IMG/VR virus record: IMGVR_UViG_3300026224_000027
Location: 1-13,555 of that record
Direction: 5' to 3' (one strand)
Length of the DNA stretch: 13,555 nucleotides
Source of the DNA: a virus
Taxonomy: Duplodnaviria > Heunggongvirae > Uroviricota > Caudoviricetes
Below the pieces are notes generated by a model, which was not told the origin of the DNA, did no database searches, and worked only from the letters and a program-made list of their open reading frames with translations. The position numbers were made by a program, and so were the translations under genes. Positions 1 through 7,052 of the stretch are shown here, piece by piece. Each line of letters begins with the position of its first letter. Within the stretch, counting starts at the first letter, position 1.

Positions 1-2
1 TA

Positions 3-488
3 TCATGCCTGTTTTGCGACCTCATTCACTACGTCATTTTTTACCATCCGGCTGATAATCAGATTACACAAATCGTCAATAATTGACTGCACTCTGTTTA
101 CTGCCATCGGTTTAAGCCCAGCATCACGTGCCAGAATACTGGGGAGTTTTTCCAGTTCCTCGCTTACGATTTCTCCCCATATAGCCATCTCTTTTCGCAC
201 ATCATCGGCGGGTATGAGTTGCGCCGTTTCCTGTTCGAACTTGAGGCGCTCACGTTCGGACTGATACCAGGCCTTACGGTCGTGTGGCTCCATTTCTTCC
301 AGTGATGCCGGAACGGGAAGATCAAGAAAACAGGTCAGAATGTCAGTCACCCGATAGAGTTTCAGCTTGTCATGTCCTCCGGCTGGCTGGATATTTTTCA
401 GCCTTGCCGCCGCAGTCTGGCGACATATTCCCGCTATCGCCGCCAGCTGGTTAATGTTCAGCATCAGATTTTTCAGTTCCCGATCCAT
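3..488 (-). CDS. Phage terminase small subunit, Nu1-like (partial; C-terminus beyond window start)
   Basis: N-terminal HTH-like segment LNINQLAAIAGICRQTAAARLKNIQPAGG followed by an acidic coiled region, resembling lambda Nu1 (by recall). ORF track starts at a TTG (545); the ATG at 488 with GGAG 5-6 nt upstream is the likelier start. Confidence 0.5.
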   Translation of the reverse strand: MDRELKNLMLNINQLAAIAGICRQTAAARLKNIQPAGGHDKLKLYRVTDILTCFLDLPVPASLEEMEPHDRKAWYQSERERLKFEQETAQLIPADDVRKEMAIWGEIVSEELEKLPSILARDAGLKPMAVNRVQSIIDDLCNLIISRMVKNDVVNEVAKQA

Positions 489-715
489 ACCCGCTCCAGA
501 ATGTTTTAAACATGCATCTTGCAAATATCTTTTAAAAAAGGTCAAAAAACGCGCTGTATGTTGAACACAAAATAAGCAAAATTAACATACCAAAAATAAA
601 AGCACTTAAAATTCAATATGATAGAAAGATGATGATGACGAATGAAAATGCAAAAACCAGCCTTTTTCCGCGCCGCTCCCGCCCCGTGGCAGACCACCCC
701 ACCGGGAGGACCCGT

Positions 716-738
716 AAAAAAAGGCGGCTATCGCCGCC
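716..738 (-). terminator. Rho-independent terminator after capsid gene
   Basis: On the minus strand, GGCGGC-(GATA loop)-GCCGCC hairpin followed by TTTTTTT (plus A-run 716-722), 8 nt after the capsid stop at 746. Confidence 0.5.
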
Positions 739-745
739 CTTGTTG

Positions 746-1507
746 TCATGCTCCACTCGATTTCAGTAATCCGCGATAGTCGAGGGCCGCGACACCTGCA
801 TCTATGCGCACCTTCCAGGCGACGCCATCAACAGTAAAGCCCTCCTGCTCCTCAAGATATGGCGTATCAATACCATCAAGATAAGCGACCTCTATCGTGT
901 CCATACCCTTCGCCGCTGCCACATACCACTCCTTGTTATTGGCTTTATCAAGACGTGGCTCAACGATTACCTCCGCCATATCTTTCACCACGTTAATGAT
1001 GCCGGGGTTCTGATTGATAGTGCCCACGCCATCAACCGGAAAGAGTGATGACGATGACAGAATGGCGCGATGTGCGGCAGACTCCAGCGCGGCGGGGACC
1101 AGGACAAATGCAGGGGTAATATTCAGCGAATCGCCGTTAGCGTCTTCCTGGAGGCGCATCAGCTTACGGGCTTCGTTAAGCCCCTCCATGTCCATATCCT
1201 TCGCAATAAGATTTTTATGATCGGCATGGAATAACGCTTTACCATCCGTAAACTTGCCGTTGCTGGTTAACAGGAGATAAACCAGATTGCCAACTGTTCT
1301 GGCAGCTGCGCGTCCCATCGCCATGGGGATTGTAGTTAACTGGGTCAGGTCATCGTTGATAATGGCCTGACGGGTAACGGAAAATATATTCCCGTACGTG
1401 GCCAGCGCAATAGGTACACCTTTATCGCTGGTGGTGATGTATTTATATTCCGCACCTTCCGGTACTTTATCCAGCTTTGAAAAACATTCAGACCAACGCG
1501 CTTTGCT
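746..1507 (-). CDS. Major capsid protein, C-terminal portion (second reading frame of the protease-capsid fusion gene)
   Basis: Frame is open from the stop at 1508-1510 down to 746; reads ...ATYGNIFSVTRQAIINDDLTQLTTIPMAMGRAAART... with capsid-like character. Contiguous with but frame-shifted relative to the 1345..2658 ORF. Confidence 0.5.
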   Translation of the reverse strand, partial: SKARWSECFSKLDKVPEGAEYKYITTSDKGVPIALATYGNIFSVTRQAIINDDLTQLTTIPMAMGRAAARTVGNLVYLLLTSNGKFTDGKALFHADHKNLIAKDMDMEGLNEARKLMRLQEDANGDSLNITPAFVLVPAALESAAHRAILSSSSLFPVDGVGTINQNPGIINVVKDMAEVIVEPRLDKANNKEWYVAAAKGMDTIEVAYLDGIDTPYLEEQEGFTVDGVAWKVRIDAGVAALDYRGLLKSSGA

Positions 1508-2658
1508 TCATGAAAGTTTGAAAGCGAACCGGTACGCGTCCATTTCTGGAACGTTTCGCCGCTGTCCTGCCAGCCTTTCAGTACAGATTTTTCAGCCCCA
1601 CCAGCCAGAATATGAGAAAAATCACTGCTGCTGTGTGTAAAAGCCGCATTAACAACCTGCGAGCGATTAATAAAACCGCTCACAGTGATACCACGATCAA
1701 CCAGTGATGCCTGGGCCATTTCAAAAAGACTCATCATCGCGTAAGGGTTGCCTCGTTCAGGCCGTTCATACCCAAGACGGGAATAAAGCCCCTGACGAAT
1801 TGCATCACCTGTTATGTTTCCGTTTCCAGCATAGATATGAGGCGGGGTATTTTTATTGGATGGCGTGGACTCGCGCCCCAGCTCGTTCAACAGCTTTTCA
1901 CGGGCCATTTCCGGTGTACATGATGCATCTTCCAGACACGCCATTTTGATCCCGTCGTAACGACTGCCGAACAGGCTAAACACTTCACTTATTCCATTGA
2001 TGCGCTTCTGTTCATTACCAGCAATGTTTGCCGCTCCCTGTGGCGGTGTAATCATTCCTTTAATGGTTTCCGGCATATGTAAAAAATCTCCTGTGCGTTT
2101 CGATTCAATTCGCGCCATTGCTCTGACGGATGGCAACAATTCATCAGCAAAACCGTGCTTAAGGCATTCTTTCCCATCCATCCAGGTTTCATCCTCCAGC
2201 ATGGCGGTAATTTCCTGTGCTGATTTGCCCGTTTTTCTGGCATAAGCAGGGATTAACACGGTTTCCACCTTATCCAGCAAATCAGCATAATCACGCATAT
2301 CGCCAGCATTTCCGCCAGAGATCCCCCACGGTTTATGGATCATCATCATGGCGTTCTCCGGCATCACTACACGATCGCCAGCCATTGCGACCACCGAAGC
2401 CATTGAAGCCGCAACACCATCGATATAAACCGTAATGTCTGCCGGATGATTCCGTAGCAGGTTATAGATGGCGATGCCTTCAAACACATCACCACCTGGT
2501 GAATGGATCCTCAGATTGATATGTGAAACATCGCCAAGGGCTTTCAGGTCTTCCGCGAACTGCTTTGCAGTAACACCGAAGCCGCCAATCTCCTCATAGA
2601 TAGATATATCCGCCGCTCCGCGAACATCCGCCGCCTTAATGGTGTACCAGCGATTCAT
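1345..2658 (-). CDS. ClpP-family (S14) prohead protease domain fused to N-terminal part of major capsid protein; apparent frameshift near its 3' end
   Basis: N-terminal about 185 aa carry ClpP-like motifs: GVAASMAS (Ser), MIHKP (His), SPGGDV. The remainder is capsid-like. The last about 50 aa of this frame look non-native where the second frame (746..1507) is open. Confidence 0.65.
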   Translation of the reverse strand: MNRWYTIKAADVRGAADISIYEEIGGFGVTAKQFAEDLKALGDVSHINLRIHSPGGDVFEGIAIYNLLRNHPADITVYIDGVAASMASVVAMAGDRVVMPENAMMMIHKPWGISGGNAGDMRDYADLLDKVETVLIPAYARKTGKSAQEITAMLEDETWMDGKECLKHGFADELLPSVRAMARIESKRTGDFLHMPETIKGMITPPQGAANIAGNEQKRINGISEVFSLFGSRYDGIKMACLEDASCTPEMAREKLLNELGRESTPSNKNTPPHIYAGNGNITGDAIRQGLYSRLGYERPERGNPYAMMSLFEMAQASLVDRGITVSGFINRSQVVNAAFTHSSSDFSHILAGGAEKSVLKGWQDSGETFQKWTRTGSLSNFHEAKRVGLNVFQSWIKYRKVRNINTSPPAIKVYLLRWPRTGIYFPLPVRPLSTMT

Positions 2659-2864
2659 TGTTCCCCCACCGATGCAAAACCATTCTGATTAAGCCAGGTG
2701 TTTACGGCATGTCTGACAATCTGCGCCACACCTGGTAATGGTTGGTCAGGATGATGATTTATATGGTCGATCCTGTACTGCTTAAGGCGCATAACGGTCT
2801 GCGCATCCAGATGAACGGAACCACCTCTGGTATCACCTGTGTTCAGGTCATTAATACAACTCAC
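2655..2864 (-). CDS. Hypothetical small protein (69 aa), first gene of capsid operon
   Basis: GTG start preceded by GAGGAAG about 5 nt upstream; its TGA stop overlaps the ATG of the protease gene (ATGA), suggesting translational coupling. Confidence 0.35.
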   Translation of the reverse strand: MSCINDLNTGDTRGGSVHLDAQTVMRLKQYRIDHINHHPDQPLPGVAQIVRHAVNTWLNQNGFASVGEQ

Positions 2865-2965
2865 AGCAACTTCCTCTGACTGACTAAACTATGCACATTA
2901 TTGATCGATAAAAGTGGTAAATAAATATATTTCTATCATAAAAACAGATTAATTAGATTCAGACA

Positions 2966-2989
2966 CAAAAAAGCCGGATTTCTCCGGCT
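2966..2989 (-). terminator. Putative intrinsic terminator downstream of replication operon/ori
   Basis: Minus-strand hairpin AGCCGGA-(GAAA)-TCCGGCT followed by TTTTT (plus A-run 2967-2971). Confidence 0.4.
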
Positions 2990-3125
2990 TCTGTCACTCG
3001 TTGCTTAAAACGGTATGTTATCCCCGTACGGATCATCATTCCCCGCCTGTTGTTTTGGTGTGCTTCGCTGTCATAGGCTTTATCTCACAGCAGTAAATTA
3101 AAATTTTTGCGTTTTAACCCTTCAA

Positions 3126-3348
3126 CTGTTCACCTTTTGATATTTTCTCTTTTAATTCATAATGTTAAGGGGTGAACAGTTTCAAAAAAACTATTCACCA
3201 ACTGTTCACCACTGTTCACCCTTGAAGCTCAATAAACAATCAAAAAGGTGAACAGTGAATAGTTTGGTGAACAGTTCATAAATAACTGTTCACCCTATAA
3301 TATAATGATATAAAAGATATTTATGACAGGGTGAACAGTGGTGAACAG
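3126..3348. repeat. Iteron array: putative island replication origin
   Basis: At least 9 exact copies of the 9-mer GGTGAACAG / CTGTTCACC in both orientations (3126, 3171, 3202, 3212, 3247, 3266, 3286, 3330, 3340) plus degenerate copies (3191, 3254), with an AT-rich stretch 3297-3328. Lies immediately 3' of the primase/helicase gene. Confidence 0.7.
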
Positions 3349-3361
3349 TTATTCCATAAGT

Positions 3362-5194
3362 TTAATTTTTGCTATCGTCATTAGTGACCGATACACATGA
3401 TGGCATCCAGTCTTCTGATTCCTCCGTCAGTGTCACGTTTGAACGCAAACCGTGTTTCGTTTTCCGTTTCATATACTCCCTGCCATATTCCGCCATTGCC
3501 CCCGGCATATCTTTACCGAAGCGCGTCAGTGTTACAGGTTTACCAAACCCATGTGCCCTCATATAAGCCAGATAGGCATGATAGAGATACCTGCGTGGGC
3601 TGAATGGCACAATTTCAGCATTACCCACTAACAGGCCATCACACATTACCGACGCCATGAGATAGCCGCAGAAGTCCACCAGCGAATCCCCCTCTCGCTT
3701 TATCGCCAGTGCTTCTTCAGATTTCTGCTGCTCATATAACAGGCGTCTGGCTTCGTCCTGGTCAGCAAACCGTGTAAGCAGATGGCGAATCACTACCGCC
3801 AGCTCACCTTCTATTTTTTCCGCCAGCATTGGATCACGTTCGTTCTCCGGTACAACTTCCGAAAAATTGAATATCACCCGACGACGTGAGATCCCCCCGC
3901 TGCGGTCACTGAATGACATGGCGTTATTGTTAACCGCCAGCACTACTGCCGGAATACGCGTTGAGTAGGGGGCTTTGTGTTTCGGGTCAATTGCCACCTT
4001 GTCACCGCCTGTAATAGCCTTAATCCCTGCCCCATCACCAGCGTAGCGGGTCATATCCGGCATGATAATCAGCGAAAAGCCAACCACTAACGCGCGTTCC
4101 CTTGCATCTTCCAGCGCCTTCATGCTTGCCGATACTGTGTTGGCCTTACCCGCCAGCATGGTGCAAATCTCCGCCATCACGCTTTTACCACTTCCCCCTG
4201 GACCTGTTACCTCAATGAATAACTGCCAGTCGTACCGGTTCGCCAGCACCATGAATAATGCAGCCAGTACGCGATCCGCCTTGCGGTCATTCTCAGCCAC
4301 CGAACGGCGTAACCACTTCCAGAAATTCGGCGCATGTGTTGCCAGCGTTTCCCCCTCTGCTGGTGGGCTGAAAGGTAATTCACTGGCAATTAACAACCAG
4401 TCGTTTTTGTTATGCTCCCGAAAATTACCTGTTCTGGTATCAAATACCCCGTTACTGAATCCAATCAGGTTACGGGCTGTATTCCCCATTACAGGCAAAC
4501 TTAACTTCATGGTATCGACCGCCGATTTAATGGCGTTCTGCGAATAGCTGATCTCCGCATCAATGAAAATCTGTGCCATAGCTCGCTGTAATTCTTTATC
4601 CTGTACTGGCTCCCATACAACGCCGTTGTAATGGTGAACAGTGTCAGAGTCAGCATGAATCGCCAGTTCACCGCCATAATGTGCCAGGAGAACTTCGCCG
4701 CGTTGACTTGCTCCCATCTGGTTAAGCGCCAGTGATGAAGCGTTATCGTCTTTTACCCGCTCTTTTTTCTTTACAGGCAGTTCAACTACCTTTTTCTTTT
4801 CCGCCAGCTCTGCCCGTTCACGTTCCAGATATTCGTGCCAGTTCTCCCGTTTCTGGCTGTGCATTCCTTCAGGATAATAATCAGCATCCCTGACACCTGC
4901 CGCTGCCAGTTTCTGCCCGATGGTATTAACAAGCACCGGACGCAATAACCCCGCCTGATAGAGACGCACGCGATAGCGTCCGTCCGGTACGATTTGCAGG
5001 TTGTCCAGTTCGGCAAGTTGTTGCTCTCCAAGCCAGACAGGTGGCACGTTATCGCCTGCCAGTCGCCCGTCCTGTTCCTGCCACTGCTTCGCATGTGCCC
5101 ACGCATCACTACCCGCAAAAATGATGACTTCCGTCATTTTGTCACGCGGCTGGTGTTTTAAATTTGGCGCTTTTTTCATTTCTGCTCTCTCCAC
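3362..5194 (-). CDS. Replication initiator: phage/plasmid primase-helicase, P4/D5 family (Walker A NTPase)
   Basis: 610 aa; Walker A motif GPGGSGKS and a downstream hydrophobic beta-strand (LVVGFSLIIMPD) typical of the P4-alpha C-terminal NTPase family. Alternative start at the ATG 5179 forms an ATGA overlap with the upstream 99-aa gene. Confidence 0.7.
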   Translation of the reverse strand: MERAEMKKAPNLKHQPRDKMTEVIIFAGSDAWAHAKQWQEQDGRLAGDNVPPVWLGEQQLAELDNLQIVPDGRYRVRLYQAGLLRPVLVNTIGQKLAAAGVRDADYYPEGMHSQKRENWHEYLERERAELAEKKKVVELPVKKKERVKDDNASSLALNQMGASQRGEVLLAHYGGELAIHADSDTVHHYNGVVWEPVQDKELQRAMAQIFIDAEISYSQNAIKSAVDTMKLSLPVMGNTARNLIGFSNGVFDTRTGNFREHNKNDWLLIASELPFSPPAEGETLATHAPNFWKWLRRSVAENDRKADRVLAALFMVLANRYDWQLFIEVTGPGGSGKSVMAEICTMLAGKANTVSASMKALEDARERALVVGFSLIIMPDMTRYAGDGAGIKAITGGDKVAIDPKHKAPYSTRIPAVVLAVNNNAMSFSDRSGGISRRRVIFNFSEVVPENERDPMLAEKIEGELAVVIRHLLTRFADQDEARRLLYEQQKSEEALAIKREGDSLVDFCGYLMASVMCDGLLVGNAEIVPFSPRRYLYHAYLAYMRAHGFGKPVTLTRFGKDMPGAMAEYGREYMKRKTKHGLRSNVTLTEESEDWMPSCVSVTNDDSKN

Positions 5195-5475
5195 GCGGCA
5201 ATCATGTTTTTCAGTTCCTGTAGTTTTTTATCAACATCCATACATGACACATGATTATTTCTGGAAAGCGGGATTTCCCGCCTGAATCTGCTAATAAAGA
5301 TCTCCACGTTCAGCGAACTATGAAATGAATAGCCATCACGAATAAAATACACACGGTCAAACATCAGTTCTTTTACCGTTACTCTGTTACCGTTCTTATC
5401 CAGATAAATAGCGCCGGGGATAATTTTGGGGTGTGCATAACCGCTGGCAGTCAAGCCAGATAAATATGTTCTCAT
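5176..5475 (-). CDS. Hypothetical protein (99 aa)
   Basis: Stop overlaps the start of the replication gene (ATGA at 5176-5179); compact operon context. No recognisable motif. Confidence 0.45.
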   Translation of the reverse strand: MRTYLSGLTASGYAHPKIIPGAIYLDKNGNRVTVKELMFDRVYFIRDGYSFHSSLNVEIFISRFRREIPLSRNNHVSCMDVDKKLQELKNMIAAWREQK

Positions 5476-5481
5476 GATTAT

Positions 5482-5802
5482 TTATCCCCGATTTGAATCA
5501 GTATTCGCTTTCTTTATGGCATTTAATGCATCTGCGGCATTTTCAATGGTGCACCGTAACGAAATATCAAACTGCCCAAGCATTGCCAGTAACAAACCGA
5601 TATTACCCATATCAATGCGCATAGCCTTTTCGTCATAGTCCTCATTTTCTGACGCATGCCACATCAGGCTACCAATTGACGCAATACCCATTGATATATT
5701 GTCAGTAGCCCCATCCGCAGCGGAATAAACCTTTTTAGCAATATCATGCTCACAGTTAAAATGCGGATTAATCAGGTACTGGTAATTTGACATATCAGGC
5801 AT
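5482..5802 (-). CDS. Hypothetical protein (106 aa)
   Basis: Start ATG (5802) lies 2 nt before the TGA of the upstream 67-aa gene; 6-nt gap to the next gene. No recognisable motif. Confidence 0.45.
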   Translation of the reverse strand: MPDMSNYQYLINPHFNCEHDIAKKVYSAADGATDNISMGIASIGSLMWHASENEDYDEKAMRIDMGNIGLLLAMLGQFDISLRCTIENAADALNAIKKANTDSNRG

Positions 5803-5998
5803 GGCACACCCCCTGACGAATACGGGCGGCGAATATCATCACGCAGCCAGCCGGGGATTGCTGGCGTGCTTCCTGTTCGCTGGTGGCCACGATGTGAATC
5901 ACGCGCGGTTGTGCCGTGCTCAGGGCGATAAAACGCCAGATGAATTTATTCAGGTTGTGCGAGTCCCGCCCTTGCGGGTGTGTGGTATGATTTAACAT
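5795..5998 (-). CDS. Hypothetical small protein (67 aa), first gene of leftward operon
   Basis: Internal Met of the 306-aa track ORF (MLNHTTHPQ...), with GAGGT about 6 nt upstream. The longer ORF upstream of this Met runs through promoter, operator and terminator elements and is judged spurious. Confidence 0.4.
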   Translation of the reverse strand: MLNHTTHPQGRDSHNLNKFIWRFIALSTAQPRVIHIVATSEQEARQQSPAGCVMIFAARIRQGVCHA

Positions 5999-6094
5999 AG
6001 CTACCTCGATACTTCTGCTATCGTTGGTGGTTAGAAGCCCGGTTAGTGTTAGCGCACTGCCGGGTTTCGTCGTTTCTGCACCTTGCATCAACAA

Positions 6095-6170
6095 GGTGTT
6101 AAACACCAATTTAAGCCTAGGTGTTAAACACGTCAAGTGTTGAACACTTATTTTTTTTCCTGCATACTGC
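6095..6170. promoter_or_regulatory. Divergent promoter region with three 13-bp palindromic operators
   Basis: Operators GGTGTT-A-AACACC (6095-6107), GGTGTT-A-AACAC (6120-6131), AGTGTT-G-AACACT (6136-6148). Rightward promoter: -35 TTGAAC (6141-6146), 17-bp spacer, -10 CATACT (6164-6169). Leftward promoter on minus strand: -35 TTGACG (6136..6131), 17-bp spacer, -10 TAAATT (6113..6108). Confidence 0.45.
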
Positions 6171-6197
6171 ATTTGTTTTTTGTAAGGAGTACACAAC

Positions 6198-6377
6198 ATG
6201 GCGACAAAAGCAGTAAACGCAAAATCACAAACAGTTGCGGCAAGGGTTCCGCATGAAGTTATGAACAATGTTGAGGCGGTAAAAATGCCTGGTGAAAGTA
6301 CAGGGCAGTTTGTAACAGCAGCATTAAAGCGAGAAGTTGAATACCGCCAGCGTCGCAAGGCCAAAGAGCAGGAGTAA
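6198..6377 (+). CDS. Small ribbon-helix-helix-like DNA-binding protein (59 aa), putative island regulator; absent from ORF track
   Basis: AAGGAG 8 nt upstream of the ATG. Sequence MATKAVNAKSQTVAARVPHEVMNNVEAVKMPGESTGQFVTAALKREVEYRQRRKAKEQE shows a strand-helix-turn-helix pattern reminiscent of Arc/CopG RHH proteins. Sits directly beside the operator cluster. Confidence 0.45.
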   Translation: MATKAVNAKSQTVAARVPHEVMNNVEAVKMPGESTGQFVTAALKREVEYRQRRKAKEQE

Positions 6378-6434
6378 CCATCACCAGCGCCGTGGTGCGG
6401 TGAACTGTGGCGCACAGGGTTACAGGTATCTACG

Positions 6435-6614
6435 ATGACTGACAAATCATTAAAGAAATTATCCTCATCCAAGAAAAAACAACGCAAAAATGCGGTAAAC
6501 GAACATGAACCGGAGAGATTCGCACCATGTGCGTTTATCCTTGAGAAGTACCTTAAAGAGTATTCTAGGAAAATACGCTCATTGCAGGCATGGCAGCGAA
6601 TCGAGCCAGACTGA
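6435..6614 (+). CDS. Hypothetical basic small protein (59 aa); absent from ORF track
   Basis: ATG-initiated ORF (MTDKSLKKLSSSKKKQRKNAVNEHEPERF...) downstream of the RHH gene and followed by a strong terminator; RBS weak. Confidence 0.3.
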   Translation: MTDKSLKKLSSSKKKQRKNAVNEHEPERFAPCAFILEKYLKEYSRKIRSLQAWQRIEPD

Positions 6615-6678
6615 TAGCATTGCCCACTAGCCGACAACCTGGTATTCTGGATATGCTCAAGTTTAGTGTTATGCCACT

Positions 6679-6706
6679 GGCGACCGCCCCCGGTCGCCTT
6701 TGTTTT
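6679..6706 (+). terminator. Rho-independent terminator ending the rightward small-ORF transcript
   Basis: GGCGACCG-(CCCC)-CGGTCGCC 8-bp GC stem followed by TTTGTTTT; lies between convergent ORF 6435..6614 and alpA. Confidence 0.6.
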
Positions 6707-6724
6707 ATGTGTCATAGCTCCCCC

Positions 6725-6949
6725 CTAGGCTGCCTTACCTGAATTAACGCGGTCACGGCTTTGCACCCAGTCCATAACTTCGGAAAGCAACCAGCCTACA
6801 GAACGCCCCCCAAGATTACGGCGAGACGGAAAGCCCCCTTTCTTCTCCAGTTCGTAGCGTGTAGTACGGCTGACGCCTGTTAACTTACGACATTCATCCT
6901 CACGAATTACGCGATCTGTTAGTGATTGAAATTGTGTATTTTGATTCAT
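6725..6949 (-). CDS. alpA: AlpA-family transcriptional regulator (excisionase-like HTH)
   Basis: 74 aa; C-terminal segment LGGRSVGWLLSEVMDWVQSR resembles the AlpA conserved region (GxxSVGWxExEIxxWxxxR); positioned downstream of int in the same orientation, as in P4-like elements and Gram-negative PICIs. Confidence 0.75.
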   Translation of the reverse strand: MNQNTQFQSLTDRVIREDECRKLTGVSRTTRYELEKKGGFPSRRNLGGRSVGWLLSEVMDWVQSRDRVNSGKAA

Positions 6950-7052
6950 AAAAACACCCTCGAACGTAACCGAACGAGGGCATCTTATTTACCATAGCAG
7001 TTGGTGCAATATTGGAAAAATAAACTTTATTCTAATTTATCGTTCTCCATGA

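What the first reader, a model, noticed from the sequence alone, without database searches (positions are those of the whole stretch)
1345..1510. Apparent frameshift inside the protease-capsid fusion gene
Two frames overlap over about 160 bp: the upstream frame ends at 1345 while the downstream frame is open from 1508 and carries convincing capsid-like sequence. A T5/A5 homopolymer at 1480-1484 lies in the overlap. This could be a real inactivating indel (a decaying island), a sequencing error, or, less likely, programmed slippage.
Basis: seen in the sequence. Interest (0 to 1): 0.45.

Follow-up and report, generated by a model that had tools for sequence, protein, structure and literature searches.

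The report
One-base deletion splits satellite capsid gene
A single missing base breaks the protease-capsid fusion gene of a small phage-satellite island into two pieces; it is an ordinary, lineage-private inactivating mutation (or, less likely, a sequencing error), not programmed recoding.

Summary
On the minus strand a 437-codon frame (2658 to 1345: ClpP-like protease, linker, start of capsid) overlaps by 160 nt a 253-codon frame (1507 to 746, capsid domain).

Intact homologues carry one 1914-nt, 637-aa gene. The window has 1913 nt. One G of a GG doublet is missing (a single C at window 1485 where relatives have CC). The site is adjacent to the T5/A5 run at 1480-1484, not inside it.

Of 187 complete E. 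coli genomes with this 81-bp stretch, none matches the window exactly. Phage homologues at about 57-61% identity also read straight through the site, at a conserved Gly392 that lies 57 residues inside the capsid domain.

There is no in-phase slippery heptamer and no notable downstream RNA structure. Programmed frameshifting is therefore rejected.

The same deletion occurs in public contigs from two further data sources, which favours a real mutation over an assembly error. The reads themselves could not be inspected.

The rest of the island is intact: integrase, AlpA, primase, DUF1441 and the att repeat. It differs from an intact E. coli copy by only this deletion and one SNP, so the lesion is recent and the island is not broadly decayed.

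Other assemblies carry different disruptions of the same gene. Interest is low.

The parts
746..2658 (-). Disrupted ClpP-like prohead protease / scaffold-linker / major capsid fusion gene: 1913 nt here, 1914 nt (637 aa) in intact copies
   Evidence: Global alignment to L001, L002 and L005 shows one missing base and 2-4 substitutions. The intact protein scores 903.9 bits on NCBIfam NF045540, cut-off 475.
1345..2658 (-). Upstream ORF of 437 aa: native residues 1-391 (protease domain about 16-175, linker, first 57 residues of the capsid domain), then 46 out-of-frame residues and a TGA at 1345-1347
   Evidence: Translation; Pfam CLP_protease at residues 31-175; alignment A1 shows divergence after RVGLN391.
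746..1507 (-). Downstream open frame of 253 codons carrying the rest of the capsid domain. It is in the native frame from F393. The first ATG at 1322-1324 would give 192 aa and has no Shine-Dalgarno-like sequence before it.
   Evidence: Translation; Pfam Phage_capsid_4 E 2.4e-46, profile positions 52-262; upstream sequence ACTACAATCCCCATG.
1485..1485 (-). Site of the lesion: a single C (+ strand) where all intact relatives have CC. On the coding strand this is loss of one G from the GGT codon of Gly392.
   Evidence: An 81-bp query across the site found no exact match among 187 complete E. coli genomes; 186 fall in the 95-99% identity band, and all listed records span 82 bases against the query's 81.
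1480..1484 (-). T5 run (A5 on the + strand) next to the lesion. It is unchanged in the window but shortened to T4 in two other assemblies (L010, L012).
1508..1510 (-). TGA that closes the capsid frame upstream, marking the limit of the two-frame overlap
723..738 (-). G+C-rich hairpin. On the minus strand it is followed by T7 (the A7 run at + strand 714-720), 8 nt after the gene's stop codon. It looks like an intrinsic terminator.
   Evidence: One search reported the stem. The T run on the minus strand was read.
2969..2992 (-). Terminator-like hairpin upstream of the fusion gene unit, after the primase operon
2655..2864 (-). 69-aa ORF whose stop overlaps the fusion gene's start codon (ATGA). 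No family match. Called as a gene in several assemblies.
1..9189 (-). The part of the island that lies in the window: DUF1441, fusion gene, P4-family primase, DUF4222, Icd-like, AlpA, DUF6387, tyrosine integrase (7904-9124), and the 27-bp att repeat at 9163-9189
   Evidence: Pfam and NCBIfam; annotation of relatives; att repeat found in L005 at 2201 and 12918 and in the window at 9163.

Best explanation
The window carries a copy of a roughly 10.7-kb integrase/AlpA/primase phage-satellite island (EcCICFT073-type Gram-negative PICI layout). In this copy the single late-type structural gene has lost one base pair. That gene is a fused ClpP-like prohead protease, scaffold-like linker and HK97-type major capsid protein of 637 aa.

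Shown:
- The lost base is one G of the GG in codon Gly392, next to a T5 run. The context fits replication slippage or a simple deletion.
- The shift puts ribosomes into the +1 frame after Asn391.
- Translation would give a 437-aa product: intact protease, linker, 57 residues of capsid domain and a 46-residue nonsense tail.
- The remaining 245 residues of the capsid domain are left without an upstream start. The only ATG (1322-1324) has no ribosome-binding site.

Inferred:
- The capsid function of this copy is lost.
- The lesion is a genuine, very recent, lineage-private mutation. It is neither a designed recoding site nor a natural gene boundary.
For: 1. Intact relatives have a 1914-nt gene. 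The window has 1913 nt, and the only indel is at 1485.
2. Of 187 complete E. coli genomes with the 81-bp stretch, none is in the >=99% identity band. 186 are in the 95-99% band, and every listed record spans 82 bases against the query's 81.
3. Phage homologues at 57% (tblastn) to 61% (alignment A1) identity, such as mEp460 gp05 and an Stx2d phage, are annotated as single ORFs and align continuously through the site (RVGMGGFSAL against RVGLNGFSKL).
4. The break is 57 residues inside Pfam Phage_capsid_4, which spans aa 335-634.
5. Island copies differ mostly by synonymous changes (15-16 synonymous against 1-2 non-synonymous). The full-length gene is therefore under purifying selection in the family.
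6. The exact 437-aa product and identical DNA are found on contigs from two further public data sources: NCBI GCA_000208465.2 (AEJW01000305.1) and Logan SRR5487539. The index also lists a 24.4-kb contig that was not shown and may be the window's own source.
7. Over window 1-9336 the only differences from an intact copy (L019) are this deletion and one SNP at 6512.
8. All other island and flank genes have the same lengths as in annotated relatives.
9. Other assemblies carry other lesions of the same gene. These include a CAG-to-TAG nonsense codon and a 5-bp deletion, which cannot be homopolymer miscalls. Real decay of this gene therefore does occur.
Against: - No reads were seen. The contigs could derive from one strain, or even from one read set. 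In that case agreement between them would not exclude a systematic error.
- Both short contigs (L003, L004) end at window 3013, on the edge of a variable slot. That would fit a second island copy collapsed in those assemblies.
- The neighbouring T5 run is a context where some platforms miscall length.
Confidence: 0.76

Rival explanations
1. Sequencing or assembly error: the strain really has the intact 1914-nt gene, and one base was dropped next to a homopolymer during base-calling or consensus building.
For: - The lesion is a single base beside a T5 run.
- It is absent from all 187 complete genomes.
- It is the only defect in an otherwise pristine island.
- GCA_000208465.2 holds the region on a 3.1-kb contig. 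That contig and the Logan contig break at the same point, window 3013, which hints at a collapsed repeat.
Against: - The identical deletion appears in contigs produced by different pipelines and data sources: an NCBI assembly, a Logan assembly of SRR5487539, and the window itself.
- The missing base is in a 2-mer, not the 5-mer, which is an unusual target for homopolymer miscalls.
- No other frameshift is seen in 13.5 kb.
Confidence: 0.2
2. Programmed -1 ribosomal frameshifting, or transcriptional slippage on the T5 run, restores a full-length fusion protein while mostly making a free protease-scaffold.
For: A -1 shift is the direction that would restore the frame. A P-site tRNA-Phe could re-pair from UUU to the overlapping UUU, giving LNVFSKL, which is a single G392V change (read).
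Against: - The two-frame arrangement is not conserved. Close homologues (none of 187 complete genomes matches the window's version) and all phage homologues examined are single ORFs.
- There is no X XXY YYZ heptamer in the zero frame, whose codons are AAU GUU UUU CAA.
- There is no Shine-Dalgarno-like stimulator upstream.
- The downstream 123 nt fold no better than shuffles (z -1.28; 18 of 200 shuffles fold as well).
- T5 is too short for efficient RNA polymerase slippage (established knowledge).
Confidence: 0.02
3. Natural two-gene arrangement: a separate protease-scaffold gene and capsid gene that overlap.
For: Many phages do encode the protease and the capsid protein separately (established knowledge).
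Against: - The boundary lies inside the capsid domain, not between domains.
- The last 46 residues of the upstream ORF and the first residues of the downstream frame have no counterpart in any homologue.
- The downstream frame has no start codon until 61 codons in, and no ribosome-binding site.
- The intact copy L019 is identical to the window over this gene apart from the one missing base. The only other island difference is a SNP at 6512.
Confidence: 0.01

Closest known systems
NCBIfam NF045540, 'ClpP-like prohead protease/major capsid protein fusion protein' (for example WP_052945000.1 in E. coli 1223, WP_001017075.1 in GN02100)
   Same: Apart from the missing base there are only 2-4 substitutions relative to L001, L002 and L005 (about 99.8% nucleotide identity). 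The domain order and the island context are the same.
   Different: The window copy is split by a 1-bp deletion at codon 392, so it cannot encode a full-length member.
Protease/scaffold/capsid fusion genes of lambdoid phages (mEp460 gp05, mEp213, mEp043, Ayreon, 1720a-02, long-tailed Stx1/Stx2 phages such as VT1-Sakai)
   Same: Same three-part architecture over the full length, with 57% identity by tblastn and 61% in alignment A1. The phage gene sits after the portal gene and is followed by a terminator. Gly392 and the flanking motif are conserved.
   Different: Those genes are in complete phage head modules. Here the gene stands alone in a roughly 10.7-kb island with no portal, terminase or tail genes. 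The linker is about 30 residues shorter.
Gram-negative PICIs of the EcCICFT073 type, and the capsid homologue Ccm of SaPIbov5
   Same: The layout is integrase, AlpA, primase/replication, then a satellite-borne homologue of a helper capsid protein. [quoted passage not shown]
   Different: No experiment links this island to a helper phage. Its capsid homologue is fused to a protease. By the paper's description EcCICFT073 has separate capsid and decoration genes. The role of the fusion gene in the island is unknown.
Frameshift pseudogenes in resident mobile elements
   Same: It is a single-base deletion beside short runs. It is private to one lineage, and other alleles of the same gene carry different lesions.
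   Different: Nothing distinctive.

Membership tests
ClpP-like prohead protease/major capsid fusion protein (NF045540) | N-terminal ClpP-like protease domain | tested here: met
   Pfam CLP_protease E 8.5e-36 at residues 31-175. NF045542 scored 228 bits on the intact relative. The AASMAS and MIHKP motifs, which resemble the ClpP Ser and His motifs as I recall them, are visible.
ClpP-like prohead protease/major capsid fusion protein (NF045540) | C-terminal HK97-type capsid domain | tested here: met
   Phage_capsid_4 E 2.4e-46 on the downstream frame. The domain spans aa 335-634 in the intact protein.
ClpP-like prohead protease/major capsid fusion protein (NF045540) | Both domains in one continuous ORF of about 637 aa | tested here: not met
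   The window has two frames of 437 and 253 codons because of the deletion at 1485. It is a disrupted copy of a family member.
Programmed -1 ribosomal frameshift site | The two-frame arrangement is conserved among homologues | tested here: not met
   None of 187 complete genomes has the window's version. All homologues examined are single ORFs.
Programmed -1 ribosomal frameshift site | Slippery heptamer X XXY YYZ in the zero frame | tested here: not met
   The zero-frame codons are AAU GUU UUU CAA, so only a one-tRNA slip on U UUU is possible.
Programmed -1 ribosomal frameshift site | Stimulatory RNA structure or Shine-Dalgarno-like element nearby | tested here: not met
   The 123 nt from the site fold with z -1.28, and 18 of 200 shuffles fold as well. 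No GGAGG-like sequence is seen upstream.
Phase-variable (contingency) locus | A long simple-sequence tract with both ON and OFF lengths common in the population | tested here: not met
   The tract is only G2T5. None of the 187 complete genomes has the window's (OFF) version of the site. T4 variants were seen only in two short-read contigs.
Gram-negative PICI (EcCICFT073 type) | Integrase at one end, AlpA regulator, primase/replication module, size about 10 kb, flanking att repeats | tested here: met
   The integrase, Phage_AlpA and P4-family primase were found. The 27-bp direct repeats lie 10.7 kb apart in L005, and one copy is at window 9163-9189.
Gram-negative PICI (EcCICFT073 type) | Induction by, and packaging through, a helper phage; cos or pac site | not testable with these tools
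   This needs induction and transduction experiments. No cos site was searched for.

The most novel reading that the evidence does not exclude
The G2T5 heptamer at codons 392-393 may be a slippage hot spot. It could toggle the satellite's capsid gene off and on again. Alternatively it could allow low-level -1 slippage on U UUU, yielding mostly free protease-scaffold plus a little full-length G392V fusion, and so change how the satellite interferes with its helper's head assembly.

The hint is that two different 1-bp deletions fall within 3 nt: the lost G here and the lost T in L010 and L012, which sit in different island backgrounds. That clustering is inflated by ascertainment, because these alleles were found through the 192-aa ORF they create.
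Probability: 0.03. Interest if true: 0.4.

Novelty: already known. Interest (0 to 1): 0.1.

Why it matters
The practical value is for annotation. The two ORFs at 746-2658 should be annotated as one frameshifted pseudogene of the protease-capsid fusion family, not as two genes and not as a recoding site.

It also shows that this island copy has probably lost whatever capsid-related function the fusion gene provides. The rest of the element looks mobile-competent and was very recently shared with E. coli.

Tried and rejected
- Programmed frameshift: rejected. I checked heptamer phase, upstream Shine-Dalgarno-like sequence, downstream fold and conservation.
- Natural gene boundary: rejected from domain coordinates and the alignment.
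- Broad island decay: rejected. All other genes are full length, and only one SNP separates the island from an intact copy.
- Identifying the source strain or the independence of the samples through the literature: no paper holds AEJW01, GCA_000208465 or SRR5487539.
- Whether DUF1441 is the PICI protein Rpp: phmmer against PDB, which should hold the Rpp structures described in PMC6739421, found nothing. Three papers mention DUF1441 only in passing. Left open.
- The third contig (24.4 kb) carrying the 437-aa product was indexed but not shown by the look-up.
- I did not run the large protein-database searches or structure prediction, because they would not change the verdict.

Full report
**Observation.**
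The genes in this part of the window are on the minus strand.
- ORF 1345..2658 is 437 aa and ends with TGA at 1345-1347.
- A second frame is open from the TGA at 1508-1510 down to the stop at 746. It is 253 codons, and its first ATG is at 1322-1324, giving 192 aa.
- The two frames overlap by 160 nt.
- The + strand reads A5 at 1480-1484.
- The upstream frame matches Pfam CLP_protease (E 8.5e-36, residues 31-175). The downstream frame matches Phage_capsid_4 (E 2.4e-46, profile positions 52-262 of 262).

**Where the frame switches.**
A megablast of 700-2900 against 5,426 complete E. coli genomes found 184 genomes covering at least 80% of the query. All listed hits are annotated 'ClpP-like prohead protease/major capsid protein fusion protein'.

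In E. coli 1223, Evo1 and GN02100 the gene is 1914 nt, or 637 aa. The window equivalent, 746-2658, is 1913 nt.

Global alignment shows 2-4 substitutions and a single gap. Intact copies read CTGAATGGTTTTTCAAAG and the window reads CTGAATGTTTTTCAAAG. The missing base is thus one G of the GG in codon Gly392. On the + strand this is a single C at 1485 where relatives have CC. The T5 run is untouched.

**Is the two-frame state conserved?**
An 81-bp query centred on the site (1446-1526) matched 187 complete genomes. None is in the >=99% identity band. 186 are in the 95-99% band, and every listed record spans 82 bases against the query's 81.

tblastn of the intact protein against 50,697 phage records found 79 full-length matches. 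The best are lambdoid phages (VT1-Sakai, several Stx2 phages, mEp460, mEp213, mEp043, Ayreon, 1720a-02) at about 57% identity. Nearly all listed matches are a single aligned piece. The exception is VT1-Sakai, which is in two pieces with an IS629 under the match.

mEp460 gp05 and the Stx2d phage gene are annotated as one CDS each. In alignment A1 the phage proteins read RVGMGGFSALRQVREGAEYKY, where the island protein reads RVGLNGFSKLDKVPEGAEYKY. The window's upstream frame leaves this alignment after RVGLN391, and its downstream frame joins it at F393.

On the intact protein the capsid domain spans residues 335-634. The break is therefore 57 residues inside that domain, not at a domain boundary. 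This excludes a natural two-gene arrangement.

**Programmed recoding.**
A -1 shift would restore the frame, but the evidence is against a programmed site.
- The zero-frame codons are AAU GUU UUU CAA, so there is no X XXY YYZ heptamer in phase. Only a single-tRNA slip on U UUU is conceivable.
- No Shine-Dalgarno-like element lies upstream.
- The 123 nt from the site fold no better than shuffled sequence (z -1.28).
- The arrangement is not conserved.

I put this reading at about 2%.

**Real mutation or error?**
The exact 437-aa product is indexed on three contigs. Two were shown:
- AEJW01000305.1 of NCBI assembly GCA_000208465.2 (3,148 bp);
- a Logan assembly contig of run SRR5487539 (2,370 bp).

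The third, of 24,425 bp, was not shown and may be the window's own source. The DNA of the two shown contigs is identical to the window over their shared length.

Three points favour a real mutation:
- The lesion is reproduced by different pipelines and data sources.
- It lies in a 2-mer, not the 5-mer.
- No other gene in the 13.5 kb is frameshifted. The integrase, DUF6387, AlpA, the 106-aa and 99-aa genes, rcnR, rcnB and yehA all have the lengths annotated in GN02100.

Three caveats remain:
- I could not establish whether the samples are independent.
- No reads were seen.
- Both short contigs end at window 3013, the edge of a variable slot. That would fit a second island copy collapsed in those assemblies.

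I put a real mutation at about 0.76 and an error at about 0.20.

**How old is it, and is the island decaying?**
The integrase allele led to an island copy with the same architecture and an intact 637-aa gene (L019, GCA_014301125.1). Over window 1-9336 that copy differs from the window at only two positions: the missing C at 1485 and a SNP at 6512. The lesion is therefore very recent, and the rest of the island is not decayed.

Among island copies that differ by up to 18 substitutions, changes are 15-16 synonymous against 1-2 non-synonymous. The full-length gene is thus maintained by selection in the family, and the window allele is a loss of function.

Looking up the 192-aa downstream ORF found other disrupted alleles elsewhere:
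- T5 to T4 in the adjacent run (L010, L012, in different island backgrounds);
- loss of an A at gene position 1275 (L006, L009, L013);
- T5 to T4 at position 1038 (L007);
- CAG to TAG at codon 364 (L008);
- a 5-bp deletion (L015).

The nonsense and 5-bp alleles cannot be homopolymer miscalls, so this gene does get inactivated in nature. This sample is biased, because only lesions that expose the 192-aa ORF are found.

**Consequence (inferred).**
The upstream product keeps the whole protease domain and the linker. It ends with 57 capsid residues and a 46-residue nonsense tail. The other 245 capsid residues lack a start, because the only ATG has no ribosome-binding site. The HK97-type shell-forming part cannot be made, so the capsid function of this copy is lost. 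Whether the free protease-linker has any effect is unknown.

**Context.**
The gene sits in an island with this gene order, read along the minus strand:
- tyrosine integrase (7904-9124);
- DUF6387;
- AlpA;
- an Icd-like gene;
- a 106-aa gene;
- DUF4222;
- P4-family primase (3362-5194);
- a 69-aa ORF;
- the fusion gene;
- DUF1441.

In GN02100 the island is bounded by 27-bp direct repeats 10.7 kb apart, between thiM and rcnR. One repeat is at window 9163-9189.

This is the layout described for Gram-negative PICIs such as EcCICFT073, which also carries a capsid homologue. It recalls Ccm of SaPIbov5 (PMC6092414, PMC6893505). No helper relationship was tested here. Lambdoid phages with the related fusion gene are candidates.

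**Comparison and novelty.**
The window copy is a disrupted member of NCBIfam NF045540; the intact relative scores 903.9 bits against a cut-off of 475. A single-base deletion pseudogene in a resident mobile element is ordinary. Interest is 0.1.

Noticed in passing
window 9313-13431, compared with 1-9336: The chromosomal flank (rcnR, rcnA, rcnB, yehA, yehB) is only about 90% identical to E. coli but 96.4% identical to the Escherichia ruysiae representative. The island is 99.98% identical to a copy in an E. coli genome (L019) at the same thiM/rcnR site. The host is probably a ruysiae-like cryptic-clade Escherichia that shares this island with E. coli through very recent transfer.
   Followed up: partly
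window 13432-13555: The match to yehB stops at about 13431. The last 124 bases are the end of an IS3-family element (IS2-like, from memory of its terminal sequence) present in 4,762 of 5,426 E. coli genomes. The usher gene yehB is therefore cut by an IS here, and the contig probably ends in that repeat.
   Followed up: partly
window 2944-3099: There is a variable accessory slot between the primase operon and the fusion gene. The window has 155 bp. GN02100 and L018 have about 900 bp with a 237-aa hypothetical gene on the other strand. The clpS/cspD-site islands have SSB plus an 81-aa gene. The short contigs L003 and L004 both end at window 3013, inside this slot.
   Followed up: partly
window 5795-6715 (-): A 306-aa ORF runs from just after alpA to the Icd-like domain, which is its last 44 residues. 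RefSeq annotates only a 67-aa Icd-like protein plus a YlcI/YnfO gene on the opposite strand. The long ORF is also open in GN02100 and was called as a 306-aa gene in L019.
   Followed up: partly
window 2655-2864 (-): A 69-aa ORF is translationally coupled (ATGA overlap) to the fusion gene. It has no Pfam or NCBIfam match. It is called in several assemblies but not annotated in RefSeq relatives, where a small ORF on the opposite strand is annotated instead.
   Followed up: no
L006-L015 (other assemblies): There are at least five other independent disruptions of the same fusion gene. Two are T5-to-T4 losses, one of them in the run adjacent to this finding. L006 and L013 also have DUF1441 split (107 + 58 aa). 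In addition clpS is shortened in both, clpA is fragmented in L006, and only its start is held on the short L013 contig. This suggests either a pseudogene-rich lineage or error-prone assemblies.
   Followed up: partly
window 10238-10320 (rcnA): rcnA is 273 aa here against 274 aa in E. coli relatives. There is an in-frame 3-nt difference and dense substitutions in the region I recall as its histidine-rich loop.
   Followed up: no
window 3-545 (-), DUF1441: The DUF1441 protein downstream of the fusion gene has no NCBIfam hit and no sequence relative among solved structures, so it is not recognisably the PICI packaging protein Rpp. In mEp460 the position after the fusion gene and its terminator is taken by a head decoration gene.
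   Followed up: partly
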